A stretch of DNA of 63,956 bases, counting the filler, from Vicugna vicugna (taxonomy: Eukaryota): assembly GCA_013265495.1 (NCBI GenBank). It is 78 parts of 75 records of this genome, joined end to end, with 100 filler letters (N's around TTAATTAATTAA, not from the genome) between each part and the next. Parts side by side here need not be neighbours in the genome. Positions count along the whole stretch, not along the records: positions 13,005 to 14,067 come from MU057442.1; positions 14,168 to 15,144 come from PNXW01000344.1; positions 15,245 to 16,626 come from MU057445.1; positions 16,727 to 17,525 come from PNXW01000370.1; positions 17,626 to 18,388 come from PNXW01000401.1; positions 18,489 to 19,137 come from PNXW01000402.1; positions 19,238 to 20,022 come from MU057459.1; positions 20,123 to 20,926 come from MU057460.1; 70 more parts are not named here. One strand, 5' to 3'. Below are positions 13,005-57,344 of the stretch, one piece after another. The position numbers and the translations under genes are program-made. The notes beneath the pieces were generated by a model. It saw only the letters and a list, made by a program, of their open reading frames with translations. It was not told where the DNA came from and did not search any database. How positions within the stretch are numbered: position 1 is the stretch's first letter; each line of letters opens with the position of its first letter.

Positions 13005-14067
13005 TTCAGTTCTGAGAGATAAGTTTGTGTGAAAGCCGTAATTCACCTAACTTGAAGGGAACACAAAGCTTCTTTACAGTTGCAAACTCCAATCCATACA
13101 TGTATATGGGGAGGTCCAAGTTCCAACACGGTTTTACAGTGAAAACGGCAGGCACTTCAAACCGGCACTAGGAAACAGACTGAGAAACCAGAGTAAGGGT
13201 TTCTCCTGCAACCCGTTCCNNNNNNNNNNNNNNNNNNNNNNNNNNNNNNNNNNNNNNNNNNNNNNNNNNNNNNNNNNNNNNNNNNNNNNNNNNNNNNNNN
13301 NNNNNNNNNNNNNNNNNNNNNNNNNNNNNNNNNNNNNNNNNNNNNNNNNNNNNNNNNNNNNNNNNNNNNNNNNNNNNNNNNNNNNNNNNNNNNNNNNNNN
13401 NNNNNNNNNNNNNNNNNNNNNNNNNNNNNNNNNNNNNNNNNNNNNNNNNNNNNNNNNNNNNNNNNNNNNNNNNNNNNNNNNNNNNNNNNNNNNNNNNNNN
13501 NNNNNNNNNNNNNNNNNNNNNNNNNNNNNNNNNNNNNNNNNNNNNNNNNNNNNNNNNNNNNNNNNNNNNNNNNNNNNNNNNNNNNNNNNNNNNNNNNNNN
13601 NNNNNNNNNNNNNNNNNNNNNNNNNNNNNNNNNNTTTTACAGTGGGCAGGCACTTCAAAACCGCACTAGGAAACAGACTGAGAATCCAGATTCAGGGTTT
13701 CTCCTTCAACCCGTTCCCTTTGTGCTGGGTGAACGAACGTCTCTCCACATGCTCAGTTCTGAGAGATAAGTGGGTGTGAAAGCCGACCTTCACTTAGCTT
13801 GAAGGGAACACAAAGATTCTTTTCAGTTGCCAACTCCACTCCATACATGTATATGGGGAGGTCCAAGCTCCAACTCGGTTTTACAGTGAAAACGGCAGGC
13901 ACTTCAAACCGGCACTAGGAAACAGACTGAGAAACCAGAGTAAGGGTTTCTCCTGCAACCCGTTCCCTTTGTGCCGGATGAACGAACGTCTCTCCACATG
14001 TTCAGTTCTGAGAGATATGATCGTGTGAATGCCGTACTTCACCTAGCTTGAAGGGAACACAAAGATT
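13005..14067 (+). repeat. Satellite family D (249-bp monomer)
   Basis: CACTAGGAAACAGACTGAG at 13664 and 13913 (period 249). Confidence 0.95.
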
Positions 14068-14167
14068 NNNNNNNNNNNNNNNNNNNNNNNNNNNNNNNNN
14101 NNNNNNNNNNNTTAATTAATTAANNNNNNNNNNNNNNNNNNNNNNNNNNNNNNNNNNNNNNNNNNNN

Positions 14168-15144
14168 TACAAAGTCAAAGTAAATATTTCAGAGTGGGTA
14201 GGTAACTTGTTTTTTTGTTGAAACATCTGTCATGCGCATGTTCACAACTCAGAAATGCATGTTTGAGGAATCCGTGATGCATGAAACATGCTCGTAATAC
14301 GGAATTCCATGGTTATGTAAACAATGTAAATTACATGTGTATTGGTGAGAATTCATGAGAATTCACACAAAGAGTTTTTTCTGGCTCCAAATGTCCGATT
14401 TTACAACCTGGTGAGAGGAAAAACCTATGAAGTCAGAATAAATATTTCTAAGCCTATATACGCCTTGTTCGGTGGGTGAAAGTTCTGTAATCCACATGTT
14501 CACAATTCAGAAACGCATGATTGCCAAATCCGTCATACATGTAGCATGTACGGAACCCGGAATTCCATGTTGTTGGAATACATGTAAATTACATATCTGT
14601 TAGTTGGAAATCGCTCCAGAACTATTTTTCTGTGAAAAATGCACGAATTCGAACCTGGTGTTAGGGAAAGCTTGTGAAAATGTGTACACGTGTCTAGATG
14701 AAAGTATTCCTTTTATAGAGGATGAAAGATAAGTAATCCACATGCTCTCAACTCAGGAATGCAACTTTGTCGAATCGGCCATGTATGTATCATGTACGGA
14801 GCACGGAATATCATGTAGATGGAATCTATTCTAATTACATATCTCTAGGGAAGAATTCGCTACAAGAGGTTTTTTGTGGGATCAAAGTTTGATTCTTAAA
14901 ATTGGTTAAAGGAAGATGCTGCGAAGTCAAAGTAAATATTTCATGGTGCGTAGGTAACTTGTTTGGTTGTTGAAACATCATTCATGCGCTTTTCACAACT
15001 CAGAACTGCATGTTTGAGGAGTCCGTGATGCATGAAACATGTTCGTAATACGGAATGCCATGGTTATGTAAACAATGTAAACTACATGTGTATTAGTTCG
15101 AATTCGCTCCAAGAGTGTTTTCTGGTGCCAGATGTCCGATTTTA
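14168..15144 (+). repeat. Satellite family C, more than one full HOR unit
   Basis: Subunit anchors (TCACAACTCAG-like) at ~14241, 14499, 14745 and 14992. The HOR restarts at 14924 versus 14172 (752 bp including a 10-bp local duplication). Confidence 0.95.
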
Positions 15145-15244
15145 NNNNNNNNNNNNNNNNNNNNNNNNNNNNNNNNNNNNNNNNNNNNTTAATTAATTAA
15201 NNNNNNNNNNNNNNNNNNNNNNNNNNNNNNNNNNNNNNNNNNNN

Positions 15245-16626
15245 CTCTGGTTTCTCAGTCTGTTTCCTAGTGCCGGGTGGAAGTTCCTGTGTTTTGCACT
15301 GTAAAAACGTGTTGAAGTTAGTTCCTGCCCATATATATGTATGGAATGGATTTTGCAAGTGACAAGAAACTTTGTGTTCCCTTCAAGCTAGGTGAAGGAC
15401 GGCTTTNNNNNNNNNNNNNNNNNNNNNNNNNNNNNNNNNNNNNNNNNNNNNNNNNNNNNNNNNNNNNNNNNNNNNNNNNNNNNNNNNNNNNNNNNNNNNN
15501 NNNNNNNNNNNNNNNNNNNNNNNNNNNNNNNNNNNNNNNNNNNNNNNNNNNNNNNNNNNNNNNNNNNNNNNNNNNNNNNNNNNNNNNNNNNNNNNNNNNN
15601 NNNNNNNNNNNNNNNNNNNNNNNNNNNNNNNNNNNNNNNNNNNNNNNNNNNNNNNNNNNNNNNNNNNNNNNNNNNNNNNNNNNNNNNNNNNNNNNNNNNN
15701 NNNNNNNNNNNNNNNNNNNNNNNNNNNNNNNNNNNNNNNNNNNNNNNNNNNNNNNNNNNNNNNNNNNNNNNNNNNNNNNNNNNNNNNNNNNNNNNNNNNN
15801 NNNNNNNNNNNNNNNNNNNNNNNNNNNNNNNNNNNNNNNNNNNNNNNNNNNNNNNNNNNNNNNNNNNNNNNNNNNNNNNNNNNGTGTTCTCTTTAGGTGA
15901 TGGACGGCTTTCACACACACTTATTTCTCAGAACTGAGCATGTGGAGAGACTTTCGTTCATCCAGCACAAAGGGAACGAGTTGCAAGGGAAATTCTTACT
16001 GTGGTTTCTCAGTGTGTTTCCTAGTGCCGGGTGGAAGTTCCTGTGTTTTGCACAGTAAAATCGAGTTGAACTTAGTTCCTCCCCATATATATGTAAGGAC
16101 TAGTGTTTGAAAGTGAATAGAAACTTTGTGTTCCCTTCAAGTTAGGAGAAGGACGGCTTTAACACCCACTTATCCCTCAGAACTGAGCATGTGTAGAAAC
16201 GTTCGTTCATCCAGCACATACGGAACTGGTTGCAGGAGAAACAATTACTCTGGTTTCTCAATCTGTTTCCTAGAGCCGGTTTGATGTTCCTGAGATTTTC
16301 ACTATAAAACCGAGTTGGAGCTTGTACCTCCCCATACATATGTATGGTTTGGAGCTTGCAAATGAAAAGAAACTTTGTGTTCCTTTCAAGCTAGGTGAAG
16401 GAGGGCTTTCACACACACTTATCTCTCAGAACTGAGCATGTGGAGAGACGTCCGTTCATCCAGCACAAAGGAAGCGGGTTGTAGGAGAAACACATACTCT
16501 GGATTCTCAGTCTGTTTCCTAGTGCCGGATTGTAGTTCCTGCAGTTTGCACTGTTAAAACGAGTTGCAGCTTGTACCTCAACATATATATGTATGGTGTG
16601 GAGTTTGCAACTGAAAGAAAATTTGT
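15245..16626 (-). repeat. Satellite family D
   Basis: Tandem TTCTCAGTCTGTTTCCTAGTGCCGG, the reverse complement of the 13005 block. Confidence 0.95.
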
Positions 16627-16726
16627 NNNNNNNNNNNNNNNNNNNNNNNNNNNNNNNNNNNNNNNNNNNNTTAATTAATTAANNNNNNNNNNNNNNNNNN
16701 NNNNNNNNNNNNNNNNNNNNNNNNNN

Positions 16727-17525
16727 AGGCAGCCTCTGTCACTGGGATATCTTGCCAACACCCCTAGCATTTCCTGGCACAGAGATATTAGGTTAATCCT
16801 CAGGGGAGGCGAGCTTAGGTTTTCCGTTGGAACCCACGCGCTGCCGACCGTTGGTGGATCCTCCCCACGCTCAGGATTCCGGAAACATTGTCAGTGCGTG
16901 GGGGAGCTTGAGAGACAACTCCACGCAGCTCTCTTCAGTCACAGGTGTTCCCTGTACGGGGAAGTCCGAGAAATACCTTCCCTGACCTTGGGGAGGCAGC
17001 CTCTGTCACTGGGATATCTTGCCAACACCCCTAGCATTTCCTGGCACAGAGATATTAGGAAAACCCTCAGGGGAGACGAGCTTAGGCTTTCCGTTAGAAC
17101 CCACGCACTGCCGACCGTTGGTGTAACCTCCCAACGCTCAGGATTCCGGAAACATTGTCAGTGCGTGGGGGAGCTCGAGAGACAACTCCACGCAGCTCTC
17201 TGCAGTCACAGGTGTTCCCTGTTCGGGGAAGTCCGAGAAATACCTTCCCTTACCTTGGGGAGGCAGCCTCTGCCCCTGGGATATCCTGCAAACCTCCCTA
17301 GCATTCCCTGACACAGAGATATTAGGAAAACACACAGGGGAGTTGAGCTTAGGCTTTCCGTTAGAACCCACGAGCTGACGACCGTTGGTGGAACCTCCCC
17401 ACGCTCAGAATTCCGGAACCAATGTCAGTGTGTGGGGGAGCTTGAGAGAAAACTCCACGCAGCTCTCTTCAGTCACAATGCGGGGAAGTCCGAGAAATAA
17501 CCTCCCTGATCTTGGGGAGGCAGCC
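16727..17525 (+). repeat. Satellite family A, about 3 copies
   Basis: AGGCAGCCTCTG recurs at 16727, 16994 and 17261 (period 267). Confidence 0.96.
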
Positions 17526-17625
17526 NNNNNNNNNNNNNNNNNNNNNNNNNNNNNNNNNNNNNNNNNNNNTTAATTAATTAANNNNNNNNNNNNNNNNNNN
17601 NNNNNNNNNNNNNNNNNNNNNNNNN

Positions 17626-18388
17626 TCGGGTACAAGCGGCGGCAAAGAGGCGGGGTTCAGGGACTACTAAAGGGGGGGGGCACCAGGAACCCTGGCTGCA
17701 GGCCACGGACCCACTTCAGGTTCCTAATTGGCCGCCCCACCCGGGCATCACCGACGAACCCCTACCTACGCGCCTCCCCAACTGCGCAGCCCAGGCCTCA
17801 CCTGCCTGCTCCCTGACCTGCGCGCCCCCACCAACGCCCCCTTACCTGCTCGGCAGCAGCAGCAGCGTAGGCGACAACAAGCGGCGGTCCAGACCCCAGG
17901 CCGCGTTCCTCCGGAGGGGCTGGTCCAGGAGCACCCGGCTCCCGCCAGCTCCCACACGCTCTGGACGGAGCGCAGCGGCCTCGCATCCTCCCGTCTGTGC
18001 GTCCGCGCGCGCGCGCCGCGCCCCTCCTCCTCCTGAGCGCAGCGCGGACGCTCGGGTTGGGTCTTCTGCCATACCGGACCCGAGGAGTGGGCCCTGGCGG
18101 GCCCGGGCGGTGGGGCGGATCCCCATCCCCAGCGCCCTCACCCTGCCAAGGACAGGATCTCCGCACCCAGCAAGAACCACCTCCGGCCGGGGCCAGGGCT
18201 GGGGCCAGGGCCGGGCCGGGCCAATCCACTCCCCCTGCTCGCCGCCCCTCCCACCCCATCGGTGCCTCCACACCCCCAGCCAGGCCCGGTCCCTGACCAG
18301 ATCCCCAAGACCAGTTTTTTTCCTGCTTACACCGAGATCCCCATCCCCACACCCTGCCCCACTAGGTCGTAACCTACGGCCCCTGCAC
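17626..18388 (-). promoter_or_regulatory. CpG-island promoter and putative non-coding first exon (paralog 1), gene unidentified
   Basis: Very GC/CpG-rich. CAG|GTAAG donor on the minus strand (exon ends at 17846). CCAAT at ~18221 and GC boxes upstream. Colinear with 36840-37200. Confidence 0.6.
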
Positions 18389-18488
18389 NNNNNNNNNNNN
18401 NNNNNNNNNNNNNNNNNNNNNNNNNNNNNNNNTTAATTAATTAANNNNNNNNNNNNNNNNNNNNNNNNNNNNNNNNNNNNNNNNNNNN

Positions 18489-19137
18489 ACAGAGGCTGCC
18501 TCCCGAAGGTCAGGGAAGGTATTTCTCAGACTTGCCTGAACACGGAACACCTGTGAATGAAGAGAGCTGCGTGGAGTTTATTCTCGAGCTCCCCAACCCA
18601 CTGGCAATGTTCCCGGAATCCTAAGCGTGGGGAGGATCCACCAACAGTCGGCAGCGCGTTGGTTCTTACGGAATGCCAAATCTCATCTCCCCTGAGGGTT
18701 TTCCTAATGTCTCTGTGCCAGGGAATGCTAGGGGTGATTGCAGGATATATCAGTGACCGAGGATGCCTCCCCAAGTTCAGGGAAGTTATTTCTCAGACTT
18801 CCCAGTACTGGGAACATCTGTGACTGAAGAGAGCTGCGTGGAGTTGTCTCTCGAGCTCCCCAACGCACTGACAATGATACCGGAATCCTGAGCGTGGGGA
18901 GGTTCCACCAACGGTCGGCAGCGCGTGGGTTCAAACGGAATACCTAAGATCGTCTCCCCTGAGGTTTTTCCTAATGTCTCTGTGCCGGGAAATGCTAGGG
19001 GGTTTGCAGGTTATCCCAAGCTGCCTCCATCAGGGAAGGTATATCTCGGACCTCCCCTAACGGGGAACTGCTGTGACTGAGGAGAATTTCGTGGAGTTTT
19101 CTGTCGAGCTCCACCACGCACTGACAATGGTTCTGGA
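18489..19137 (-). repeat. Satellite family A
   Basis: Reverse complement of the family A monomer (CTGAGCGTGGGGAGGTTCCACCAACGGTCGGCAGCGCGTGGG). Confidence 0.95.
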
Positions 19138-20122
19138 NNNNNNNNNNNNNNNNNNNNNNNNNNNNNNNNNNNNNNNNNNNNTTAATTAATTAANNNNNNN
19201 NNNNNNNNNNNNNNNNNNNNNNNNNNNNNNNNNNNNNACCATTATTGGAAATGCAAGAAGAGCATGAGTGGCAAGAAGAAACCAGAAGAAGGCAAGGAGA
19301 ACATCAATACCCTAAAAATGGGAGAGGGAAGCAGGAAATCATAGGTGATTGGAAGCACTATCTTAAGTGAATCAGCTTATATGACTCTCTGTTTGAAGCA
19401 AACGGAGAGATGCATGGCCTGACGTGTTTGCAAAACAAACGAGAAGCAGACCAACAAAAATCAAACAAACAAACATGCACCCAAAGTGTACGGTTGGCTG
19501 ACATATATCAAGGGAACCATGATTATTCAAAAGAAAATACTCAAAGTGATGTCAAGGATCATNNNNNNNNNNNNNNNNNNNNNNNNNNNNNNNNNNNNNN
19601 NNNNNNNNNNNNNNNNNNNNNNNNNNNNNNNNNNNNNNNNNNNNNNNNNNNNNNNNNNNNNNNNNNNNNNNNNNNNNNNNNNNNNNNNNNNNNNNNNNNN
19701 NNNNNNNNNNNNNNNNNNNNNNNNNNNNNNNNNNNNNNNNNTGCCATATTCTAGGCTACGTAGAGAAGAATTGTAAGAAGCCTATAACAAAGGCAAGTAG
19801 CTCTGCCAAAGTGTACTAAGAGCAAAAGAGACTGACAGCAAAGTGCACATTGGGGTTGGTTTCATTTCTTGGAATTTCAGCCCCCATGAAACCAATGGAA
19901 CCATGTCCTGAGATGAGGGGTGTTTCAGCAGAAATCAACTGATGGATATGTATTCCGGCTGTACGGATATTACAGGAACATACGTTTCCTTTAGAGGGTC
20001 TCTGTGTACTGTGAACTGTTAGNNNNNNNNNNNNNNNNNNNNNNNNNNNNNNNNNNNNNNNNNNNNTTAATTAATTAANNNNNNNNNNNNNNNNNNNNNN
20101 NNNNNNNNNNNNNNNNNNNNNN

Positions 20123-20926
20123 ATAGAGAATAGAGAATACGGGGTGCAGAATATAGAACACAGAATACAGCATGTAGAACACAATATATAGAATACTGAT
20201 TAGAGTATATAGAAACCAAAATTTACAACATAGAATGTAGAACCCAGAATTTAGAATATAGAATACAGAATACTGAATATAGAATTTAGAATATAGAATG
20301 TAGAACACAGAATATAGAATANNNNNNNNNNNNNNNNNNNNNNNNNNNNNNNNNNNNNNNNNNNNNNNNNNNNNNNNNNNNNNNNNNNNNNNNNNNNNNN
20401 NNNNNNNNNNNNNNNNNNNNNNNNNNNNNNNNNNNNNNNNNNNNNNNNNNNNNNNNNNNNNNNNNNNNNNNNNNNNNNNNNNNNNNNNNNNNNNNNNNNN
20501 NNNNNNNNNNNNNNNNNNNNNNNNNNNNNNNNNNNNNNNNNNNNNNNNNNNNNNNNNNNNNNNNNNNNNNNNNNNNNNNNNNNNNNNNNNNNNNNNNNNN
20601 NNNNNNNNNNNNNNNNNNNNNNNNNNNNNNNNNNNNNNNNNNNNNNNNNNNNNNNNNNNNNNNNNAAATTAGAATGTAGAACACAAAATATAGAATAAGG
20701 AAAACAGAATACAAAACCCAGAATTTAGAATATGGAATGCAGGACACAGAATTTAGAGTATATAATACGGAATACTGAATATAAAATTTAGAATATGGAA
20801 TGTAGAACACAGAATATGGAATGTAGTATACGGAAGGCAGAATATTGAGTACAGAATATTGAATGTAGAACAAAGAATTTTGAATATGGAAAACAGAACA
20901 TAGAATCCAGAATTTAGAAAATGGAA
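20123..20926 (+). repeat. Satellite family E heptamer
   Basis: AGAATTTAGAATATAGAATACAGAATACTGAATATAGAATTT, as in the 12433 block. Confidence 0.94.
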
Positions 20927-21026
20927 NNNNNNNNNNNNNNNNNNNNNNNNNNNNNNNNNNNNNNNNNNNNTTAATTAATTAANNNNNNNNNNNNNNNNNN
21001 NNNNNNNNNNNNNNNNNNNNNNNNNN

Positions 21027-21226
21027 CTAGCATTCCCTGGCACAATGACATTAAGAAAATCTTCAGGGGAGGCGAGCTTAGGCATTCCACTAGAACCCAC
21101 GCGCTGACGACCGTTGGTGGAACCTCCCCACGCTCAGGATTCCGGAACCATTGTCAGTTCGTGGGGGAGCTCGAGAGACAACTCCACGCAGCTCTCTTCA
21201 GTCACAGGTGTTCCCTGTTCGGGGAA
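21027..21226 (+). repeat. Satellite family A fragment
   Basis: Direct match to the family A monomer. Confidence 0.95.
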
Positions 21227-21326
21227 NNNNNNNNNNNNNNNNNNNNNNNNNNNNNNNNNNNNNNNNNNNNTTAATTAATTAANNNNNNNNNNNNNNNNNN
21301 NNNNNNNNNNNNNNNNNNNNNNNNNN

Positions 21327-21522
21327 CTTCAGTCACAGGTGTTCCCTGTTCGGGGAAGTCCGAGAAATTCCTTCCCTGACCTTGGGGAGGCAGCCTCTGA
21401 CACTGGGATATCCTGCAAAACCCCCTAAAATTCCCTGGCACAGAGAAAATAGGAAAACACTCGGGGGAGAATAGCTCAGTCTTTCCGTTAGAACCCACGC
21501 GCTACCGACCGTTGGTGGAACC
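21327..21522 (+). repeat. Satellite family A fragment
   Basis: Direct match to the family A monomer. Confidence 0.95.
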
Positions 21523-22822
21523 NNNNNNNNNNNNNNNNNNNNNNNNNNNNNNNNNNNNNNNNNNNNTTAATTAATTAANNNNNNNNNNNNNNNNNNNNNN
21601 NNNNNNNNNNNNNNNNNNNNNNACACTTGCCGAAAAGAGGTCTGTTACTTCCAAAGACAGGATGAGGTCTTAGAACACCTGGAAGCAGGAGAAGGCAAAG
21701 CAGGGAATGGAAACCAGTGCAGGGTCTGACCCCTGGTGATGGAGAAGCAAAGGTGAATCTCTGTTTAACTTGGACGCACACTCTCAAGCGGACAGGAGAC
21801 ATGGGATTGAAGGTGATGCGCTGAGTGTTAGAAGAGTGCACAGCAGATGCTTGGCTGACAGAACTCAAAGAAACCAGCGCAAAATATCCCCACAGTTGAT
21901 TCTGAGNNNNNNNNNNNNNNNNNNNNNNNNNNNNNNNNNNNNNNNNNNNNNNNNNNNNNNNNNNNNNNNNNNNNNNNNNNNNNNNNNNNNNNNNNNNNNN
22001 NNNNNNNNNNNNNNNNNNNNNNNNNNNNNNNNNNNNNNNNNNNNNNNNNNNNNNNNNNNNNNNNNNNNNNNNNNNNNNNNNNNNNNNNNNNNNNNNNNNN
22101 NNNNNNNNNNNNNNNNNNNNNNNNNNNNNNNNNNNNNNNNNNNNNNNNNNNNNNNNNNNNNNNNNNNNNNNNNNNNNNNNNNNNNNNNNNNNNNNNNNNN
22201 NNNNNNNNNNNNNNNNNNNNNNNNNNNNNNNNNNNNNNNNNNNNNNNNNNNNNNNNNNNNNNNNNNNNNNNNNNNNNNNNNNNNNNNNNNNNNNNNNNNN
22301 NNNNNNNNNNNNNNNNNNNNNNNNNNNNNNNNNNNNNNNNNNNNNNNNNNNNNNNNNNNNNNNNNNNNNNNNNNNNNNNNNNNNNNNNNNNNNNNNNNNN
22401 NNNNNNNNNNNNNNNNNNNNNNNNNNNNNNNNNNNNNNNNNNNNNNNNNNNNNNNNNNNNNNNNNNNNNNNNNNNNNNNNNNNNNNNNNNNNNNNNNNNN
22501 NNNNNNNNNNNNNNNNNNNNNNNNNNNNNNNNNNNNNNNNNNNNNNNNNNNNNNNNNNNNNNNNNNNNNNNNNNGTTTCATTGGGACATTCCCGTGGCAC
22601 TACAAAGCACAAGCGCACTCTCAGTTTGCACTTTTGGAAACACTCCAAAGTGACATGGAGCACAATGCAGAGCTGAAAACCTTTAGAATCTTCATTTCCA
22701 CCAGAGGAAGTGTCCTGTGCACNNNNNNNNNNNNNNNNNNNNNNNNNNNNNNNNNNNNNNNNNNNNTTAATTAATTAANNNNNNNNNNNNNNNNNNNNNN
22801 NNNNNNNNNNNNNNNNNNNNNN

Positions 22823-24111
22823 GGGCACAGTTATTCCATGGTTGTGGGTTGTAGGTTAAAAAGCCACTTCCCATCGATAGGTTCTCTCTAATAGTTGGTT
22901 TAGAGCCCAACCCCCACATTCCACCCCTCTCCAGCCTAGGAATGCCATCAGGGAAGACAAGCTAAGGGATTCTATAAGAACCCAGGCGCTGCTGGCATTT
23001 GGAGGAGACTCCCCACAATCAGGATACCTGANNNNNNNNNNNNNNNNNNNNNNNNNNNNNNNNNNNNNNNNNNNNNNNNNNNNNNNNNNNNNNNNNNNNN
23101 NNNNNNNNNNNNNNNNNNNNNNNNNNNNNNNNNNNNNNNNNNNNNNNNNNNNNNNNNNNNNNNNNNNNNNNNNNNNNNNNNNNNNNNNNNNNNNNNNNNN
23201 NNNNNNNNNNNNNNNNNNNNNNNNNNNNNNNNNNNNNNNNNNNNNNNNNNNNNNNNNNNNNNNNNNNNNNNNNNNNNNNNNNNNNNNNNNNNNNNNNNNN
23301 NNNNNNNNNNNNNNNNNNNNNNNNNNNNNNNNNNNNNNNNNNNNNNNNNNNNNNNNNNNNNNNNNNNNNNNNNNNNNNNNNNNNNNNNNNNNNNNNNNNN
23401 NNNNNNNNNNNNNNNNNNNNNNNNNNNNNNNNNNNNNNNNNNNNNNNNNNNNNNNNNNNNNNNNNNNNNNNNNNNNNNNNNNNNNNNNNNNNNNNNNNNN
23501 NNNNNNNNNNNNNNNNNNNNNNNNNNNNNNNNNNNNNNNNNNNNNNNNNNNNNNNNNNNNNNNNNNNNNNNNNNNNNNNNNNNNNNNNNNTGTGCTGGAG
23601 AAACAAATTCCACGCAACTTTATGGGGCACAGGTGTTCCAATTTGGGAATTTGTTTTAAAAACTCCACTACCCATAGAGGGGCACTCCCTAACCCTTGTC
23701 TTTAGAGCCCATCCCCCACATTCGCTCACAGCCATGCCTAGGTAAATACTCAAGGAAGTCAAGGTAATAGATTGTATTAGACCCCAGGTGCTGCTGTCAT
23801 TTGGAGGGAACTCCCACCATTCAGGATAGAAGAACACTTCCTCGTTTGTGTGCTGGTGGTGGGGAAACAGGGTCAAGGCATCTTTCAGGTGGCACATGTA
23901 TTCCCACGTTGCTGGGTGTAGGTAAAATTTCTCAAATTCCCATGTCGATGCATTGGCAAATTCTTGGTATTAGAGCCGAAAACCCACATTCCCCAGCACT
24001 CCAGCCTAGGCAAACCATCAGGGAAGGCAAGTTATGTGATTCAAGTAGAACACAAGCGCTCCTGATATTTGTAGGAACTTCCCCACACTCAGGATCCCGG
24101 AACCCAACCTT
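22823..24111 (+). repeat. Satellite family B
   Basis: 23592-24111 is colinear with 59141-59683; 22823-23031 matches the reverse complement of ~55300-55483. Confidence 0.92.
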
Positions 24112-24994: not shown

Positions 24995-25072
24995 CTCCCA
25001 CGTGCTACAGAGATCCACTGTGTCAAATATTACTTTTCCATTTTCATCTTTGGGAAGAGGGTCCTCCCCTGG
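24995..25072 (-). CDS. Internal coding exon (exon 4 equivalent) of an AKR1C-family aldo-keto reductase / hydroxysteroid dehydrogenase
   Basis: 78-bp phase-0 exon encoding [26 protein letters not shown], with acceptor TTCTCTTCCAG and donor GTGAGT. Matches recalled AKR1C [26 protein letters not shown]. The specific paralog cannot be assigned. Confidence 0.92.
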
Positions 25073-25435
25073 CTGGAAGAGAAGCAATCATTTTAGAGCT
25101 GTCACAAAGTAACTTCGCCAAGCGTAGCCCTGCCGGCAGGCACACCTAGGACCAGGACACTCAGCCTATGCGACATTCGGGATACTGGTATTTGCAAAGC
25201 GGCTTGCATGGGGAGCCGTAAGGAGCGTCTTTAGGAGACAGGCTTCCTGGAACCTCCTGCACTTACTATAAGTTGTAACGAATATAATTCTCCTGCTTCC
25301 TAACGGGGACTGTCGGGGATGTATGTGAATGGTCTNNNNNNNNNNNNNNNNNNNNNNNNNNNNNNNNNNNNNNNNNNNNTTAATTAATTAANNNNNNNNN
25401 NNNNNNNNNNNNNNNNNNNNNNNNNNNNNNNNNNN

Positions 25436-25723
25436 TGCCGACCGTTGGTGGAACCTCCCCACTCTCAGGATTCCGAAACATTTGTCAGTGCTTGGGGGAA
25501 CTCGAGAGACAACTACACGCAGCTCTCTTCAATCACAGGTGTTCCCTGTCCGGGGAAGTCCGTGAAATACCTTCCCTGACTTTGGGGAGGCAGCCTCTGA
25601 ACATGGGAATTCCTGCAAACCACCCCTAGCATTCCCTGGCACAGAGACATTAGGAAAACCCTCAGGGGAGACGTGCTGAGGCTTCCCGTTAGAACCCACG
25701 CGCTGCCGACCGTTGGTGGAACC
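25436..25723 (+). repeat. Satellite family A, about 1.1 monomer
   Basis: TGCCGACCGTTGGTGGAACC at both ends. Confidence 0.95.
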
Positions 25724-25823
25724 NNNNNNNNNNNNNNNNNNNNNNNNNNNNNNNNNNNNNNNNNNNNTTAATTAATTAANNNNNNNNNNNNNNNNNNNNN
25801 NNNNNNNNNNNNNNNNNNNNNNN

Positions 25824-26510
25824 AGGTTAAAATCAAAAAAAGATTAACAAGCACTAATGAGGACACAGTGGAAGCGGAGCCCGCAGCCATTGCTGGTAAG
25901 GATGTAACACAGCGTGACCACTTTGGAAAACATCCTGGCACGTCCTCAGAGAGTTGAACATTTGGCTTCTGAATGATCCAGCAATTCTGCTTCCTGGGCA
26001 CACAAGTAAGAGAACTGAAAACAAATGTTAACATAAAAACTCCTACAGNNNNNNNNNNNNNNNNNNNNNNNNNNNNNNNNNNNNNNNNNNNNNNNNNNNN
26101 NNNNNNNNNNNNNNNNNNNNNNNNNNNNNNNNNNNNNNNNNNNNNNNNNNNNNNNNNNNNNNNNNNNNNNNNNNNNNNNNNNNNNNNNNNNNNNNNNNNN
26201 NNNNNNNNNNTGGACAAACATTGAAAACGTTACTCAGTGTGAAAGAAGTCAGTCAAAATAGACGGTTCCACTTACATGAAGTGACTCGATTTGCATGAAA
26301 TGTTCAGCACAGGCAAATCCACAGAGACAGAAGAGTGGCTCCCTGGGGCTTGGGGAGGATGGGGAAGTTGATAATGTCTGCTTATGTGTACTGGGTTTTC
26401 TGTTGGGGGGAAGAAAATATTCTAAGATTGACTGGGATGCACATTTCTGGGCATAGAGTAAAATCCGCTGTACATTTTAATGGGTGATTTGTATTAAAAC
26501 TGTTAAGAAC
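25824..26510 (+). mobile_element. Old LINE-1 3' region (L1MB/MC-like)
   Basis: TGATCCAGCAATTCTGCTTCCTGGG, AGGCAAATCCACAGAGACAGAAG, GAAAATATTCTAAGATTGA. Confidence 0.8.
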
Positions 26511-26667
26511 AAAAGCACCTGTGATTAGTACCTTCCATAGTAAATGCAAATTGCTAACATTTATTACNNNNNNNNNNNNNNNNNNNNNNNNNNNNNNNNN
26601 NNNNNNNNNNNTTAATTAATTAANNNNNNNNNNNNNNNNNNNNNNNNNNNNNNNNNNNNNNNNNNNN

Positions 26668-27163
26668 ATATGTTAAGAACACCTAGAAATGAAGTTAACA
26701 AGTAAGGTGAAAGCCTATACGTTAAAAAACAGAAAATATTGCTGAAGGAAATTAAAACTGATCCAAAGGAATGAAAATATCCCTTATGTTAATGTTGTGA
26801 AACAATGTGTTTGAAACATCCATACTTAACAAAGGAATCTATATTTAGTGTGATTCATGTCAAAATACCTATGAGATTTTTCCATTAAGTAGAATAAATA
26901 ATTTCAAAATTTATATGTAACGACTAAGAACATGAGTTGCCAAAATAATCTTGAAAAAGAGTATTAAAACTAATGGTGTAAAGATCTCTGATGTTAAACA
27001 GTCCTACAAAGCTTTAGTAATTAAAACAACATGATACTGGCTCAGAAACAGACACCAATCTATAGAAGAGTATAGAGCAACCAGATATAATCCTTCACAC
27101 CTATGATCAAACGAAAATGGAAGCAAGAGTATAAAATGAAGAAAAGACATTCTCCTAAATATG
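26668..27163 (+). mobile_element. Degenerate LINE-1 ORF2 fragment
   Basis: ATATTGCTGAAGGAAATTAAA, CTACAAAGCTTTAGTAATTAAAACAACATGATACTGGC. Confidence 0.85.
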
Positions 27164-27594
27164 NNNNNNNNNNNNNNNNNNNNNNNNNNNNNNNNNNNNN
27201 NNNNNNNTTAATTAATTAANNNNNNNNNNNNNNNNNNNNNNNNNNNNNNNNNNNNNNNNNNNNTATTTAAGATGTGAGATTTTTATTTAAACTTTTATAT
27301 ATAAAATACCTGAATTCTTAGGACCGTTCTAGGAGACGAGTGCTGTTGTTGTCCCGAGTCTATGGATGAGGAGTCTGAGATGCAGAAAATTTCCCTGAAT
27401 ATCAGGGTCACAGCTGCCCAGTGGTGCTGTGGGATTTCAGGCCCTCTTGTTTGTCCCCAGCATCTGTGCTCTTCACCACCATGCTCTACTCCTTNNNNNN
27501 NNNNNNNNNNNNNNNNNNNNNNNNNNNNNNNNNNNNNNTTAATTAATTAANNNNNNNNNNNNNNNNNNNNNNNNNNNNNNNNNNNNNNNNNNNN

Positions 27595-28361
27595 CCGTTA
27601 GAACCCATGCGCTGCCGACCGTTGGTAGAACCTTCCCACGCTCAGAATTCCGGAACCATTGTCAGTGGGTGGGGAGTTCGAGGGACAACTCCACGCAGCT
27701 CTCTTCAGTCACAGGTGTTCCCAGTTCGGGAAGTCCGAGAAATAAATTCCCTGATCTTGGTGAGGCAGCCTCGGTCACTGGGATAATCTGCAATAACCCC
27801 TAGCATTCCCTGGCAAAGAGAAATTAGAAAAACCCTCANNNNNNNNNNNNNNNNNNNNNNNNNNNNNNNNNNNNNNNNNNNNNNNNNNNNNNNNNNNNNN
27901 NNNNNNNNNNNNNNNNNNNNNNNNNNNNNNNNNNNNNNNNNNNNNNNNNNNNNNNNNNNNNNNNNNNNNNNNNNNNNNNNNNNNNNNNNNNNNNNNNNNN
28001 NNNNNNNNNNNNNNNNNNNNNNNNNNNNNNNNNNNNNNNNNNNNNNNNNNNNNNNNNNNNNNNNNNNNNNNNNNNNNNNNNNNNNNNNNNNNNNNNNNNN
28101 NNNNNNNNNNNNNNNNNNNNNNNNNNNNNNNNNNNNNNNNNNNNNNNNNNNNNNNNNNNNNNNNNNNNNNNNNNNNNNNNNNNNNNNNNNNNNNNNNNNN
28201 NNNNNNNNNNNNNNNNNNNNNNNNNNNNNNNNNNNNNNNNNNNNNNNNNNNNNNNNNNNNNCCTTCCCTGATGAGGCAGCCACTTACACTGGGATATCAT
28301 GCAATCACCCCTAGCTTACCCTGGCACAGAGACATTAGGAATACCCTCAGGGGAGACGAGC
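27595..28361 (+). repeat. Satellite family A
   Basis: Direct match on both sides of an internal gap. Confidence 0.94.
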
Positions 28362-28461
28362 NNNNNNNNNNNNNNNNNNNNNNNNNNNNNNNNNNNNNNN
28401 NNNNNTTAATTAATTAANNNNNNNNNNNNNNNNNNNNNNNNNNNNNNNNNNNNNNNNNNNN

Positions 28462-29670
28462 TGGGGAGGTTCCACCAACGATCGGCAGCGCGTTGGTTCT
28501 AACGTAATGCCTAAGTTCGTCTCCCCTGAGTGTTTTTCTTATATCTCTGTGCCAGGGAATGCTAGGGGGGTTTGCAGGATATCCCAGTGACAGAGGCTGC
28601 CTCCCCAAGGTCAGAGAAGGTATTTCTCGGACTTCCCCGAACAGGGAACACCTGTGACNNNNNNNNNNNNNNNNNNNNNNNNNNNNNNNNNNNNNNNNNN
28701 NNNNNNNNNNNNNNNNNNNNNNNNNNNNNNNNNNNNNNNNNNNNNNNNNNNNNNNNNNNNNNNNNNNNNNNNNNNNNNNNNNNNNNNNNNNNNNNNNNNN
28801 NNNNNNNNNNNNNNNNNNNNNNNNNNNNNNNNNNNNNNNNNNNNNNNNNNNNNNNNNNNNNNNNNNNNNNNNNNNNNNNNNNNNNNNNNNNNNNNNNNNN
28901 NNNNNNNNNNNNNNNNNNNNNNNNNNNNNNNNNNNNNNNNNNNNNNNNNNNNNNNNNNNNNNNNNNNNNNNNNNNNNNNNNNNNNNNNNNNNNNNNNNNN
29001 NNNNNNNNNNNNNNNNNNNNNNNNNNNNNNNNNNNNNNNNNNNNNNNNNNNNNNNNNNNNNNNNNNNNNNNNNNNNNNNNNNNNNNNNNNNNNNNNNNNN
29101 NNNNNNNNNNNNNNNNNNNNNNNNNNNNNNNNNNNNNNNNNNNNNNNNNNNNNNNNNNNNNNNNNNNNNNNNNNNNNNNNNNNNNNNNNNNNNNNGGAGT
29201 TGTCTTCGGCTCCGCCATGCACTTACAATGGTTCCGGAATCCTGAGCGTGGGGAGGTTCCACCATCGGTCGGCAGAGCGTGGGATCAAACGGAAAGCCTA
29301 AGATCGCTCCCCTGAGGATTTGCCTAATGTCTCTATGCCAAGGAATGCTTGGGGAGTTTGCAGGATATCCCAGTGACAGAGGCTGGCTCCACAAGTTCAG
29401 GGAAGTTATTTCTCGGACTTCGCTGAACAGGGAACCCCTGTGACTTACGAGAGCTGCGTGGAGTTGTCTCTCGGCTCCGCCATGCACTTACAATGGTTCC
29501 GGAATCCTGAGCGTGGGGAGCTTCCACCAACGGTCGGCAGTGCGTGGGTTCTAACGGAAAGCCTAAGATCGCTCCCCTGAGGATTTTCCTAATGTCTCTA
29601 TGCCAAGGAATGCTTGGGGAGTTTGCAGGATATCCCAGTGACAGAGGCTGGCTCCACAAGTTCAGGGAAG
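28462..29670 (-). repeat. Satellite family A, including a 265-bp variant subfamily
   Basis: CCATGCACTTACAATGG at 29215 and 29480 (period 265). Confidence 0.95.
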
Positions 29671-29770
29671 NNNNNNNNNNNNNNNNNNNNNNNNNNNNNN
29701 NNNNNNNNNNNNNNTTAATTAATTAANNNNNNNNNNNNNNNNNNNNNNNNNNNNNNNNNNNNNNNNNNNN

Positions 29771-30430
29771 CTGAGGTTGCAGTCACTATGTGCATAACTC
29801 CCAGGTTTTGGCTATCTTTCCTTCACAAGATCTTCATTACGGAGCTTCATCAAGAAGTTTAAAGAGGCTATTCTTATATATGAGTGGAGGAGCCTGCAAA
29901 AAATTTAAATGGCTTTGAAGAGAGAGTTAACCAGGGACAGAGATGTCGCAGGTCCTAGTCAAAAGTGTCATGAGGAAAAATGTTCTCCCAAGGCTCAGAG
30001 TGGCTTCTGAACANNNNNNNNNNNNNNNNNNNNNNNNNNNNNNNNNNNNNNNNNNNNNNNNNNNNNNNNNNNNNNNNNNNNNNNNNNNNNNNNNNNNNNN
30101 NNNNNNNNNNNNNNNNNNNNNNNNNNNNNNNNNNNNNNNNNNNNNNNNNNNNNNNNNNNNNNNNNNTGTCAGTCATTTGGGCCACTTGGGAGAAGCTACA
30201 CGATGCCATTCACAGGGGTGGGGCATGACAGCCACACAAGTCTAGGTTGAAAGAACAGTTGGGGTATTTGTAAGGTTATCACGGGCATGCAGCAAACTCC
30301 CCAGCTTCAATGACCTCATCTCAAAGCTGTGGTCAATAAAACTACCAAGCAAAGTGCGAGATGATTATGGCCCACATCTGTTTATTAGGTAAGTGCCCGT
30401 GAAAGCTGCCGCTTAATGGGGAATGAGTAC
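29771..30430 (+). mobile_element. Possible degenerate ERV1 pol fragment (RNase H / integrase N-terminus)
   Basis: EVAVTMC at 29773 resembles the RNase H motif EVAVIHC. WEKLHDAIHRG at ~30187 resembles the integrase HxxxH zinc-finger half. Heavily degraded. Confidence 0.35.
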
Positions 30431-30599
30431 NNNNNNNNNNNNNNNNNNNNNNNNNNNNNNNNNNNNNNNNNNNNTTAATTAATTAANNNNNNNNNNNNNN
30501 NNNNNNNNNNNNNNNNNNNNNNNNNNNNNNGGATCTCTTCTGAAAGTTGAAAATGTGTACATTATCTCACTTCCTTCCACTGATACCACAATTTCCTTG

Positions 30600-31230
30600 T
30601 TTTGTTTATTTTTTTTAATTGTATGAAGAACACTTAGCATGAGATCTCTGCTGCTAAGTTTTGAAGCACACAGCACAGTACTGTTAACTAGATACAGAGT
30701 GTTGCACACCAGGTTCTAGAGCTACTTGTCTTACAAACTGACACTTTCTTTTGACACTTTCTTTCCATTAAACAACTCTTNNNNNNNNNNNNNNNNNNNN
30801 NNNNNNNNNNNNNNNNNNNNNNNNNNNNNNNNNNNNNNNNNNNNNNNNNNNNNNNNNNNNNNNNNCCCTCTAGGACTATATCACCCATCATAATATCCCC
30901 CAGGTTCACCCGTGGTTTCACGCATGGCAGGATTTCCTTCTGTTTTAAGCCCAAGTGAAGTTTAACTCTATGTACCCATCACGTTTTCTTTATCCATCCA
31001 TCCAATAATGGACATTTAGGTTGTTTTTATGTGTTGGCTATGGTGACTAGTACTGCAGTGAACATGGGAGTGAGATATCTAGATATCTATTCTAGATCCT
31101 GATTTCAATGATTTTATATATATAATGATATATTGATTATATATATATATATAATCTGAAATTGGGACTGCTGAATCATACGGAAGTTCTATTTTCAATT
31201 TGTTGAGGAGCTTCTACATTGCTTTCTTAA
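30600..31230 (-). mobile_element. LINE-1 3' end
   Basis: TTTCTTTATCCATCCATCCAATAATGGACATTTAGGTTGTTT, GGGACTGCTGAATCATACGG. Confidence 0.85.
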
Positions 31231-31649
31231 TTGCTTTCTTCTGTACCATCGCTTCTTCTCCTAAGTTTCCTCCTGCCACAGAACTTGGCATACTCTTTCT
31301 TCTCTCTTAGATAATGTCCCTACCTCCCATCCCTTTTGTCAACTCTTAATTGAGAATTCAAGCTGAGCATCATTTTCTAAGGGATGTTTTGCTGAAACCT
31401 GAACTTCCTGGGGTTCTGTTATGTTTTCTCATCACTGTGCACCTCTNNNNNNNNNNNNNNNNNNNNNNNNNNNNNNNNNNNNNNNNNNNNTTAATTAATT
31501 AANNNNNNNNNNNNNNNNNNNNNNNNNNNNNNNNNNNNNNNNNNNNTGACAGTTCACACACTTGTCTTGGCCCTGAGCGTGCAGCCCCGCCACCTGGGCA
31601 AAGGAGCCAACCCGTGTGCACGCATCCCGGCCCCGCCCAGTTGCCCCCT

Positions 31650-32005
31650 CGGCCACGCCCCTGCCCCGACCGCCGGCCCGCCCCTTAATCAGGCAGGCAG
31701 GCAGGAGGCAGTCGTTCCCAGCGGCCCAGCGCTTTTCTGAGCGCTGCTGTCTCTCCTCAGGCCGCCAGCGGCGGCAGCTGCACAGGCAGCGGCGCGGTCC
31801 TTTTAGAAGGCGCAGCTTGAGCCGAGCGGCGGCCGCGGAGGGGCCAGCGCAGCGCGTTGGCGGGGCCTGTGGCGTCCGCGTCGGTTTCCATGGAGACGGC
31901 AGAGTCGGTTGCACTGGTGGCGGCGGCGGCGGACACGGGCTCCAAGATGGTCCACAGGAAAGGCGTGCGACATGGGGCCGCCCTACAGCAACCTCTGGTA
32001 CATCG
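31650..32005 (+). pseudogene. MAPK1: Diverged, frameshifted copy of the MAPK1 (ERK2) 5' UTR and exon-1 coding start
   Basis: ATG at 31890: METAESVALVAAAADTGSKMVHRK, then +1 frame ACDMGPPYSNLWYI, versus recalled ERK2 [32 protein letters not shown]. Upstream GCCGGCCCGCCC..GGCAGGCAGGCAGG..GCTGCAC..GAGCGGCGGCCGC follows the recalled MAPK1 5' UTR. Confidence 0.85.
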
Positions 32006-32754
32006 NNNNNNNNNNNNNNNNNNNNNNNNNNNNNNNNNNNNNNNNNNNNTTAATTAATTAANNNNNNNNNNNNNNNNNNNNNNNNNNNNNNNNNNNNNNN
32101 NNNNNGGCACAGGGATGCCCAAATCAACTCGAGCCCACCGGCTATAGAAAGAGCACACTCCCAGCCCCACCTGGGTTGTGAGGGGACAGAAGGTGTCCTC
32201 AACTTTCATGTGTCTAAAACAATCTTCTTCAGCTGGAGGTTCTAGAGAAAAATAAAAGGTCCAAAACATAGTTCGGTGAGGAATTCCTCCAAGGACCTGA
32301 CTCCAGTGTCTACAACCATGTGTACCTACNNNNNNNNNNNNNNNNNNNNNNNNNNNNNNNNNNNNNNNNNNNNNNNNNNNNNNNNNNNNNNNNNNNNNNN
32401 NNNNNNNNNNNNGGCTGCCCAGAGGGGGCTGGGGGAATGGGTAAGGCCAGGGCAATTAAGAAAAGCACAGAGGACCTGACATCTCCCTTCTGCACTCGCA
32501 AACCCTTCCCCAAATCTCAAGGCATTGGACAGAGAGCCGCCACAATAATGAGATGCTCCCATTTCTTCACTCACTCCTGTCGTTTCACTTACATGCTGAG
32601 CATCCACTGGGACATGACACATAGGATGGCTGATGGGACAGGCTTGGTCCTTCCNNNNNNNNNNNNNNNNNNNNNNNNNNNNNNNNNNNNNNNNNNNNTT
32701 AATTAATTAANNNNNNNNNNNNNNNNNNNNNNNNNNNNNNNNNNNNNNNNNNNN

Positions 32755-33273
32755 CTCAACTCAGGAATGCATGTATTCAAATCCGTCATGCATGGAGCAC
32801 GTATGGAAAACGTAATTCAATTTAGATGGAAACTATTCAAATTACATACCTCTAGGGAAGTATTCGCTCCAAGGGAATTTTCCTTGGATCAAAGTGTGAT
32901 TCTTGATACTGGTGACAGGGAGAAGCAATGAAGTCAAAGTAAATATTTCAAACTGCATAGGTACCCTGTTATGGTTGAAACATCAGTCATGCGCATGTTC
33001 ACAACTCAGAAATGCATGTTTGAGGAATCCGTGTTGCATGAAACATGTTCAGAATACGGAATGCCATGGTTATGTAACTAATGTTAATTACATGTGTATT
33101 GGTGAGAATTCGCTCAAGGAGTGTTTTAAGGTGCCAAATGTCCTATTTTAGAACCGGGTGTTTGATAAAATCTATGAAGTCATAGCGTAAATATTTCTAA
33201 GTCTATATATGCATTGTTTGGTCGATGGAAGATCGATAATCCACGTGCTCACAACTTAGAAACGCATGTTTGC
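32755..33273 (+). repeat. Satellite family C
   Basis: Colinear with the ~14745-15144 subunits and their continuation. Confidence 0.93.
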
Positions 33274-33373
33274 NNNNNNNNNNNNNNNNNNNNNNNNNNN
33301 NNNNNNNNNNNNNNNNNTTAATTAATTAANNNNNNNNNNNNNNNNNNNNNNNNNNNNNNNNNNNNNNNNNNNN

Positions 33374-34178
33374 TCACATGTAGATGCATTGGCTAATGCT
33401 TGGTATTAGAGCCGAAATCCCACATTCCCCTGCACTCCAGCAAAGGCAAAGCGTCAGGGAAGGCAAGTTAAGGGATTCAACAACACAGGCGCTGCTGACA
33501 GTAGGTGGAACGTCCCAAATCTCAGGATTCCGGAACCCAACACTTTGTGGCGGGGAGATGTGGAGCCAAAATCCAAGTAGATGAATTGGGTCACACTTGT
33601 TCAAATTAGGGAGAAGTCCTCTAAATACTTCCACATTCCTTCGGGGGGCAGTTGCTGCTACTTGGCCTCCAAGCCAAACTCCCAGCTTTCCCTCTAAGCC
33701 CGGCCTAGGGATACACTCAAGGAAAACAATCTAAGGGATTCTATTAGAACCCAGGCGCTGCTGTCATGTGGAGGAGCCTCCCCACTATCAGGATACCTGA
33801 CCACGTCTCCGTGTGTGTGCTGCAGGGGGGAAACAGAGTCCACTCATCTTTATGGGGGCACAGGTGTTCCAAGGTTGGGGAAAGTTTCAAACCCTGCACT
33901 GCCCACAGAGATGCACTCTCTAATACTTGACTTTAGAGCCCATCCCCCACCATCGCCCCCTGCTAGGCCTAGGAAAACACTTAGAGAAGACATGCTAAGG
34001 GATTCTATTCGAGCCCAGGTGCTACTGTCAGTTGGAGGAACCTCCCCACACTCAGAACACCAGAACACTTCTTCGTGTGTGTGCTGGATGTAGGGAAACA
34101 GAGTCAAAGCATCTTTCAGGAGGCAGAGTTATATCATGGTGGTTGTTTGTAGGTTAAACACCCACATCCCATGGATAG
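33374..34178 (+). repeat. Satellite family B, three consecutive diverged subunits
   Basis: GG(C/T)GCT(G/A)CTG anchors at 33488, 33754 and 34018 (spacing 266 and 264). Confidence 0.93.
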
Positions 34179-56985: not shown

Positions 56986-57344
56986 TCCCAGGTGCTGCTG
57001 TCAGTTGGAGGAGCCTCCCCACAATCAGGAGACCAGAAAAGTTCTTCATTTGTGTCCTGGAGGTTGGGAAACAAATTCCACGTTTATTTATTGGATCACA
57101 GGTGTTCCCAGGTTGGGGATGTAGGTAAACACTTCCACTGCCCATAGACAGGCACTCGCTATTACTTTGGTTTAGTGCCCAACCCCACCTTAACTCACAT
57201 CGCGGCCAAAGGAAACAATCAGGGATTTCAATCCAAGAGATTATATTAAATCCCAGGTGCTGCCGTCAGTTGTAAGAGCCTCCCCACATTTAGGATAGCT
57301 GACGAGTTCTTCGTGTGTGTGCTGGAGTGGGGAAACAGATCTAC
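56986..57344 (+). repeat. Satellite family B
   Basis: TCCCAGGTGCTGC at 56986 and 57251 (spacing 265). Confidence 0.92.

What the first reader, a model, noticed from the sequence alone, without database searches (positions are those of the whole stretch)
13005..34178. Four apparently distinct satellites (A 267 bp, B ~265-bp HOR, C 3 x 247 bp, D 249 bp) look like one superfamily
Seen by eye: D (~13907-14005) AACCGGCACTAGGAAACAGACTGAGAAACCAGAGTAAGGGTTTCTCCTGCAACCCGTTCCCTTTGTGCCGGATGAACGAACGTCTCTCCACATG is colinear with C (~14652-14745) AACCTGGTGTTAGGGAAAGCTTGTGAAAATGTGTACACGTGTCTAGATGAAAGTATTCCTTTTATAGAGGATGAAAGATAAGTAATCCACATG. The match continues as CCGT..T.CA..TAGC.TG.A.GGAACAC. D also aligns with B (~33699-33785) CCGGCCTAGG...CTAAGGGATTCTATTAGAACCC...GGAGGAGCCTCCCCAC. 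B clearly matches A (TTAGAACCCAsGCGCTGC...TTGGwGGAACCTCCCCACrCTCAGGATTCCGGAAC; CACAGGTGTTCC). Inference: one ancestral ~250-267-bp monomer radiated into families differing widely in GC content and higher-order structure, a satellite library. The A-B and C-D links are strong; the B-D bridge is weaker. I recall camelid satellites being described individually, but do not know whether this common origin has been.
Basis: partly seen in the sequence, partly recalled or inferred. Interest (0 to 1): 0.7.

Follow-up and report, generated by a model that had tools for sequence, protein, structure and literature searches.

The report
Camelid satellites share one ancestral repeat
Four abundant camelid tandem repeats of 250-270 bases, so far treated as separate satellites, align in the same order and strand, so they likely descend from one ancestral repeat unit that includes the llama's presumed centromere DNA.

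Summary
Confirmed. The window is 78 unplaced scaffolds joined by an artificial spacer; four satellites fill 39% of its called bases: A (267 bp, 55% GC), B (~266 bp, multi-monomer higher-order repeat, 49%), C (3 x 247 bp, 36%) and D (249 bp, 44%). A-B (69% identity) and C-D (59%) are plainly homologous. The B-D bridge is weaker but holds: 0 of 20,000 shuffles, five scoring schemes, same strand, colinear. Its firm core is about 110 bp; A-C shows no direct signal. D matches the llama's top tandem repeat, a candidate centromere satellite (Melters 2013). B motifs lie in the alpaca 'kilobase monomers' VpaSat15 and VpaSat16, which are likely 14- and 7-mers of B. A may be SAC-SAT (recalled, untested). 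D also holds a 97-bp inverted repeat; no CENP-B box was found. Best reading: one ancestral monomer split into two lineages, each with a homogeneous and a higher-order family. Satellite superfamilies are a known kind; this one was not found in my literature searches or in earlier scan notes. Useful for camelid centromere work, not surprising in principle.

The parts
13005..14067 (+). Family D array (249-bp monomer), scaffold with two pieces (13005-13219, 13635-14067)
   Evidence: about 92% to D consensus
13962..14058 (+). 97-bp imperfect inverted repeat inside a D monomer (previous copy 13713-13809)
   Evidence: D consensus 0 of 500 shuffles; monomer starting near 13655: 0 of 200
15245..16626 (-). 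Family D array (pieces 15245-15406, 15884-16626)
   Evidence: TRF period 249; llama-repeat motif hits
48741..49211 (+). Family D array
14168..15144 (+). Family C array, trimer of ~247-bp monomers (types Cc-Ca-Cb-Cc)
   Evidence: 75,425-87,590 contigs laid in two public DNA runs, joints at ~250 and ~750
32755..33273 (+). Family C array
1129..2346 (+). Family C array (two pieces)
34279..34975 (+). Family C array (two pieces)
41692..42831 (-). Family C array (two pieces), period 739
46114..46837 (+). Family C array
47825..48640 (-). Family C array (two pieces)
63898..63956 (-). Family C fragment
16727..17525 (+). Family A array (267-bp monomer)
   Evidence: TRF period 267, 92% matches
18489..19137 (-). 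Family A array
21027..21522 (+). Family A, two separate scaffolds (21027-21226, 21327-21522)
25436..25723 (+). Family A array
27595..28361 (+). Family A array (two pieces)
28462..29670 (-). Family A array (two pieces)
10849..11743 (+). Family A array
46938..47724 (+). Family A array (two pieces)
22823..24111 (+). Family B array (two pieces)
33374..34178 (+). Family B array, three different monomer types in a row
4357..5099 (-). Family B array (two pieces)
10256..10748 (-). Family B array; its two monomers match those of 45102-45738 in order (93%, 93%)
45102..46013 (+). Family B array (two pieces)
54554..55483 (-). Family B array (two pieces)
55933..56885 (+). Family B array; the 78-bp piece 56808-56885 is probably B too (not used in the statistics)
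56986..57344 (+). Family B array
59141..59683 (+). Family B array; monomers match 23591-24111 (86%, 87%) and then 33374-34178 (91%) in order
60776..61549 (+). Family B array (two pieces)
61650..63016 (-). Family B array (two pieces)

Best explanation
A, B, C and D are four tandem-repeat families whose units align in one order and on one strand along the chain A-B-D-C, and they likely descend from one ancestral 250-270-bp unit by repeated amplification of variant copies. Shown: tandem arrays; A and D homogeneous monomers (neighbours 86-90% alike); B and C built of unlike monomers in fixed order (neighbours 65% alike, matching types 82-95%); significant colinear homology A-B, C-D and B-D; an unrooted tree with a long branch between (A, B) and (C, D). 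Inferred: an early split, with indels netting about 18 bp, into a 267-type and a 249-type lineage; in each lineage unequal exchange or gene conversion homogenised either single monomers (A, D) or blocks of several (B, C); GC content then drifted apart (36-55%). Inferred from the literature match: D is the most abundant, likely centromeric member; the roles of A, B and C (likely heterochromatin blocks) are untested.
For: A-B 69% and C-D 59% identity over whole monomers, each 0 of 1000 shuffles; raw segments without consensus: A-B 140 of 140 and C-D 31 of 32 pairs beat all 12 shuffles. B-D: 0 of 20,000; 0 of 1500 in 5 of 5 scoring schemes and 0 of 500 in 12-bp local shuffles; score 2699 against at most 1656 for 240 tiles of other window DNA and 1085 for reversed D; 137 identities in 236 aligned columns, null mean 110, max 133 of 1000; first and last thirds of D each find the predicted part of B, 0 of 500 each; B profile finds 3 of 5 D segments above all shuffles, all on the predicted strand; 23 of 56 raw B-D pairs (about 4 expected) and 7 of 40 natural monomer pairs (under 1 expected). 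A-D peaks at the predicted phase and strand among all rotations, and A-D and B-C each reach 1 of 150. Tree.
Against: A-C is not significant in any test; A-D and B-C not by local alignment. The C, and joint C+D, profiles find 0 of 14 B and 0 of 10 A segments; the D profile finds only 4 of 14 B segments at 2.4-7.1 bits, near the pooled null maximum of 5.7. D's middle third is not significant against B alone (163 of 500). Column tests meant to give support independent of the B-D alignment were inconclusive (C: 17 of 46, 216 of 1000 nulls; A: 15 of 34, 53 of 1000). D rests on 5 segments about 86% alike, so it is in effect one observation. The tree cannot be rooted and composition differs among rows.
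Confidence: 0.8

Rival explanations
1. Mosaic origin: (A, B) and (C, D) are two superfamilies that share only a module of about 110 bp, joined to unrelated DNA in each, as horse CENPB-sat shares 224 of 425 bp with 37cen.
For: Only D positions about 198-249 and 1-58 are significant against B on their own; the middle needs several gaps. Equid precedent: PMC11804003 passages.
Against: The middle third's best hit is on the predicted strand and in colinear position (D 134-158 to B 146-170); unit lengths are close; whole-monomer global scores are significant for B-D and marginal for A-D and B-C.
Confidence: 0.14
2. The B-D likeness is chance or convergence (composition, nucleosome-length units), leaving two unrelated pairs.
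For: No direct A-C signal; weak reciprocal profile hits; inconclusive column tests.
Against: 0 of 20,000 shuffles, ungapped score also 0 of 1500, local-shuffle, reversed and real-DNA nulls all far lower.
Confidence: 0.04
3. All four are independent tandem amplifications of one dispersed element (for example a short inverted-repeat transposon), not descendants of one satellite.
For: D holds a 97-bp inverted repeat with 8-bp perfect ends.
Against: The inverted repeat covers 97 of 249 bp; C-D and A-B homology runs round the whole unit, so unit boundaries were inherited; a four-family profile finds no dispersed copy in 60 other segments.
Confidence: 0.02

Closest known systems
Llama top tandem repeat, candidate centromere satellite (Melters et al. 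2013, PMC4053949; supplement passages and main-text passages seen)
   Same: 248 nt, 45% GC, no higher-order structure, 2.9% of the genome. A 29-nt stretch of it hits D copies 7 times and nothing else in the window; by eye the printed unit is D's reverse strand. D is this family.
   Different: Listed as a single repeat; the word llama does not occur in the main text, so no relatives are discussed there. Centromere role is presumed from abundance.
Alpaca VpaSat16 (1863 bp) and VpaSat15 (3718 bp) (Mendoza-Cerna et al. 2026, PMC13751797; body text and spreadsheet read, consensus cells cut at 400 letters, slide supplement unreadable)
   Same: VpaSat16 carries two B/A motifs in order at B's 14-nt spacing; a motif read from VpaSat15 hits 10 places, all in B segments. 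Lengths are 7.0 and 14.0 times 266.
   Different: The paper treats them as kilobase monomers without primers or FISH; 'superfamily', 'higher-order' and '267' occur 0 times. An exact 25-nt VpaSat16 stretch has no window match within 3 mismatches, so it is a different variant or a noisy consensus.
SAC-SAT, NOR-associated satellite of South American camelids (Mendoza Cerna et al. 2026, Genomics 118:111212; not held, title and citing passages only)
   Same: I recall a 267-bp unit, the length of A; this comes from no call.
   Different: Sequence not seen; identity with A untested.
Satellite superfamilies of the satellitome scheme (Ruiz-Ruano et al. 2016, PMC4935994; passages seen)
   Same: Homologous families under 80% identity with units differing by indels, e.g. 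locust SF3, 231-274 bp.
   Different: Here the span is wider (direct signal lost between end members), with two higher-order families and a 19-point GC spread.
Equid 37cen / CENPB-sat (PMC11804003; passages seen)
   Same: Related satellites of one lineage; the CENP-A-bound member lacks a CENP-B box and is enriched in dyad symmetries.
   Different: Partial (224 of 425 bp, 70%) rather than whole-unit homology; no sequence relation to camelid repeats was tested.
Primate alpha satellite, monomeric and higher-order families (recalled)
   Same: One unit giving both monomeric and higher-order arrays.
   Different: 171-bp unit with CENP-B boxes and far narrower composition; none found here.

Membership tests
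satellite DNA superfamily (Ruiz-Ruano 2016) | each member is a tandem repeat family | tested here: met
satellite DNA superfamily (Ruiz-Ruano 2016) | detectable homology between families at under 80% identity | tested here: met
   A-B 69%, C-D 59%, B-D 52-58%, all significant; linkage is by chain, A-C not significant directly
satellite DNA superfamily (Ruiz-Ruano 2016) | homology over the whole unit (stricter reading) | tested here: inconclusive
   met for A-B and C-D; for B-D firm over about 110 bp, colinear but weak elsewhere
satellite library (Fry and Salser sense) | families shared by related species and amplified to different levels | tested here: inconclusive
   D in llama data, B in alpaca data, C abundant in two coded organisms and present as mostly under-90% variants in two further runs; no named Old World camel data
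llama candidate centromere repeat (family D) | 248-249-bp unit, about 45% GC, same sequence | tested here: met
   whole-length match judged by eye, 29-nt stretch by search
llama candidate centromere repeat (family D) | binds CENP-A / lies at centromeres | not testable with these tools
   only presumed from abundance in PMC4053949
VpaSat15 / VpaSat16 (family B) | B motifs in order and length a multiple of 266 | tested here: met
   only the first 400 letters of each consensus were visible
SAC-SAT (family A) | sequence identity and NOR co-location | not testable with these tools
   paper not held; length recalled
higher-order repeat | unlike neighbours, alike same-position monomers in fixed order | tested here: met
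   C: three types, within 79-95%, between 59-74%; B: ordered pairs recur in separate scaffolds, full period not seen; A and D are monomeric
CENP-B-box satellite | 17-bp box with 9 core bases (motif recalled) | tested here: not met
   0 strict boxes in the window; best 6-7 of 9 in consensuses

The most novel reading that the evidence does not exclude
This is the whole centromeric satellite lineage of camelids: an old unit that already held a 97-bp inverted repeat, kept best by D, which now binds CENP-A without CENP-B boxes; B and C are older higher-order layers, and the 'novel, South-American-specific' NOR satellite (A) is a re-amplified, GC-enriched offshoot of the B side whose relatives persist in Old World camels.
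Probability: 0.25. Interest if true: 0.65.

Novelty: new member of a known kind. Interest (0 to 1): 0.45.

Why it matters
Camelid satellites are catalogued one by one and the 2026 survey left centromeric arrays aside. One superfamily would tie the llama's presumed centromere repeat to the alpaca's kilobase 'monomers' (likely higher-order repeats of a 266-bp unit) and possibly to SAC-SAT. It gives four monomer profiles for annotating unresolved centromeres in camelid assemblies, and a clean test of the library and layering models in a family with a frozen karyotype (2n = 74). It also shows how far one unit can drift: 36-55% GC and no direct similarity between end members.

Tried and rejected
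No whole genome is held, so all statistics rest on 17,488 bp in this window. Internal sub-repeats in the monomers: none (circular autocorrelation at most 0.34). A nested within B as sister to one B monomer type: suggested by a shared 2-bp deletion, but the AU test does not decide (p 0.58). Inverted repeat as a feature of all four families: significant only in D (A 54, B 353, C 236 of 500); folding energy of D is unremarkable (7 of 100; a 173-nt natural piece 3 of 200); C and B do not restore D's broken pairs more than chance and paired positions are no more conserved among D copies. Gapped percent identities are inflated for distant pairs and were not used. Further remote members among 60 other segments: none above null. 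Metagenome scans: 0 hits and 16 hits that are not satellites. Rfam: only a tRNA outside the families. Earlier scan notes: nothing relevant. In one search one B segment was still in the wrong orientation (fixed), which explains 10 minus-strand A-B bests.
Full report
Setting. The window is not contiguous DNA. It holds 77 identical spacers (44 N, a 12-base linker, 44 N) and so 78 small unplaced scaffolds. BLAST clustering of the called segments gives four satellite families: A in 12 segments (4,630 bp), B in 17 (5,953 bp), C in 12 (4,881 bp), D in 5 (2,024 bp), together 39% of 45,375 called bases. They occupy 9, 11, 8 and 3 scaffolds, and no scaffold holds two families. No whole genome was available. 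The species is not given; matches to llama and alpaca repeats (below) point to a South American camelid.

Anatomy. A is a 267-bp monomer, 55% GC, neighbours 90% alike. D is a 249-bp monomer, 44% GC, neighbours 86% alike. C is a trimer of about 247-bp monomers, 36% GC: three types, 79-95% alike within type and 59-74% between, always in one order. In two public DNA runs of two coded organisms 87,590 and 75,425 contigs lay on the C stretch, with joints that skip about 250 or 750 bases, so C is a real, very abundant array. B monomers are 254-268 bp, 49% GC, 53-93% alike; ordered pairs recur in separate scaffolds at 86-93%, which shows higher-order structure, though its full period is longer than any scaffold here.

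Homology tests. Each family's consensus was built from its own segments alone. Local alignment with free phase and strand against 1000 dinucleotide shuffles: A-B z 49, C-D z 28, B-D z 8.6 (0 of 1000 each); A-C, A-D and B-C not significant. Whole-unit identities in a four-way alignment: A-B 69%, C-D 59%, B-D 52%, A-D 52%, B-C 47%, A-C 45% (the last three are not evidence by themselves). I pressed on B-D. It held under 5 of 5 scoring schemes, including ungapped (0 of 1500 each), and against 12-bp local shuffles; against 20,000 shuffles (max 2322 against 2699); against 240 tiles of other window DNA (max 1656 over the four consensuses) and reversed D (1085). The first and last thirds of D each find the predicted part of B (0 of 500); the middle third lands colinearly but is not significant alone (163 of 500). 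Without consensus, 23 of 56 segment pairs beat all 12 shuffles and 7 of 40 monomer pairs beat all 60. Global alignment over rotations adds marginal support for A-D and B-C (1 of 150 each), none for A-C (58 of 150). Against my reading: profiles of C and C+D find no A or B segment, the D profile finds 4 of 14 B segments weakly, and two column tests were inconclusive (216 and 53 of 1000). So the link is a chain A-B-D-C, its middle bond firm over about 110 bp.

Tree and mechanism. A tree of the 41 monomers of 195 bp or more separates (A, B) from (C, D) with full support and gives A, C and D each one side of a branch; B is not resolved as one group and the AU test does not decide whether A arose from one B type. 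Path lengths are roughly 0.7 changes per site for A-B, 0.8 for C-D and 1.1 for B-D (summed by me; rough, as alignment and composition are uncertain). Inferred history: one unit split early into a 267-type and a 249-type lineage; in each, exchange between copies homogenised either single units or blocks of units. This follows the standard account of satellite evolution (recalled). Copy variants of A and D run from G/C to A/T about three times as often as the reverse (159:54 and 70:26), so both sit above their mutational equilibrium; biased gene conversion or chance amplification of GC-rich copies could explain this, and neither was tested.

An extra feature. D holds a 97-bp imperfect inverted repeat (28 of 46 pairs; 0 of 500 shuffles; natural monomers 0, 0, 1 and 16 of 200). 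Both arms are homologous to C (29 and 31 of 46), so it likely predates the C-D split, but it is not significant in A, B or C and shows no sign of conserved pairing. No CENP-B box was found (motif recalled). Dyad symmetries have been proposed to mark centromeres that lack such boxes (PMC5889037, search listing and start of abstract; PMC11804003 passages); here this is a lead only.

What is known. D is the llama's most abundant tandem repeat in Melters et al. 2013 (PMC4053949: 248 nt, 45% GC, 2.9% of the genome; supplement passages; motif search), a candidate centromere repeat by abundance alone. The 2026 alpaca survey (PMC13751797; parts 1-5 of 8, the whole body; spreadsheet with cells cut at 400 letters; slide supplement unreadable) lists VpaSat16 (1863 bp) and VpaSat15 (3718 bp), whose visible starts carry B motifs and whose lengths are 7 and 14 times 266; an exact VpaSat16 stretch did not match the window. 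That paper focuses on non-centromeric satellites and never uses 'superfamily', 'higher-order' or '267'. SAC-SAT may be A; I recall a 267-bp unit, but the paper is not held and could already mention relatives. The 1987 and 1994 restriction studies were seen only as cited. Passages of PMC13477059, PMC6675863, PMC6598621 and PMC7830431 gave nothing on these units; the last reports that alpaca centromeric repeats hybridise only weakly to camel autosomes. Searches found no paper stating a common origin; subscription journals, Dfam and Repbase were not searchable.

Verdict. By the published definition (PMC4935994 passages) this is a satellite superfamily, a known kind of thing, with an equid analogue. 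What is new is the membership: it joins the llama's presumed centromere repeat to alpaca kilobase satellites and perhaps SAC-SAT. Interest 0.45.

Noticed in passing
whole window, e.g. 12905-13004: 77 identical artificial spacers (44 N, 12-base linker, 44 N) join unplaced scaffolds; neighbourhood in this window carries no biological meaning.
   Followed up: yes
13962-14058 and other D monomers: 97-bp imperfect inverted repeat with 8-bp perfect ends, significant only in family D.
   Followed up: yes
12433-12904, 20123-20926, 35923-36739, 53600-54453: A fifth, unrelated AT-rich satellite with a 7-bp unit and a 63-bp (9-mer) higher-order period.
   Followed up: no
44914-44997: Degenerate telomere-like hexamer run with a 31-bp period at a scaffold end.
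   Followed up: no
17626-18388, 36840-37622, 31547-32005: CpG-rich segments of 66-71% GC; the first two are related to each other by BLAST.
   Followed up: no
8165-8235: tRNA-like Rfam match, 53.8 bits; gene or tRNA-derived repeat not examined.
   Followed up: no
runs X15 and X17 laid on 14168-15144: Contigs mostly under 90% alike to C (91 of 110, 121 of 149) that run on into C-like but different sequence: a diverged C relative in another organism or a rare subfamily.
   Followed up: partly
B monomers in 33374-34178 and 45102-45738: One B monomer type shares a 2-bp deletion and several motifs with A, hinting that A arose from it; the tree test is undecided.
   Followed up: partly
PMC13751797 Table S3: VpaSat14 (1864 bp) is also 7 x 266 and may be a further B higher-order unit; judged by length and a weak by-eye match only.
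   Followed up: no
38300-38831, 49312-50044, 57445-58151: Three mutually related non-satellite segments, one with an internal inverted match; likely interspersed-repeat fragments.
   Followed up: no
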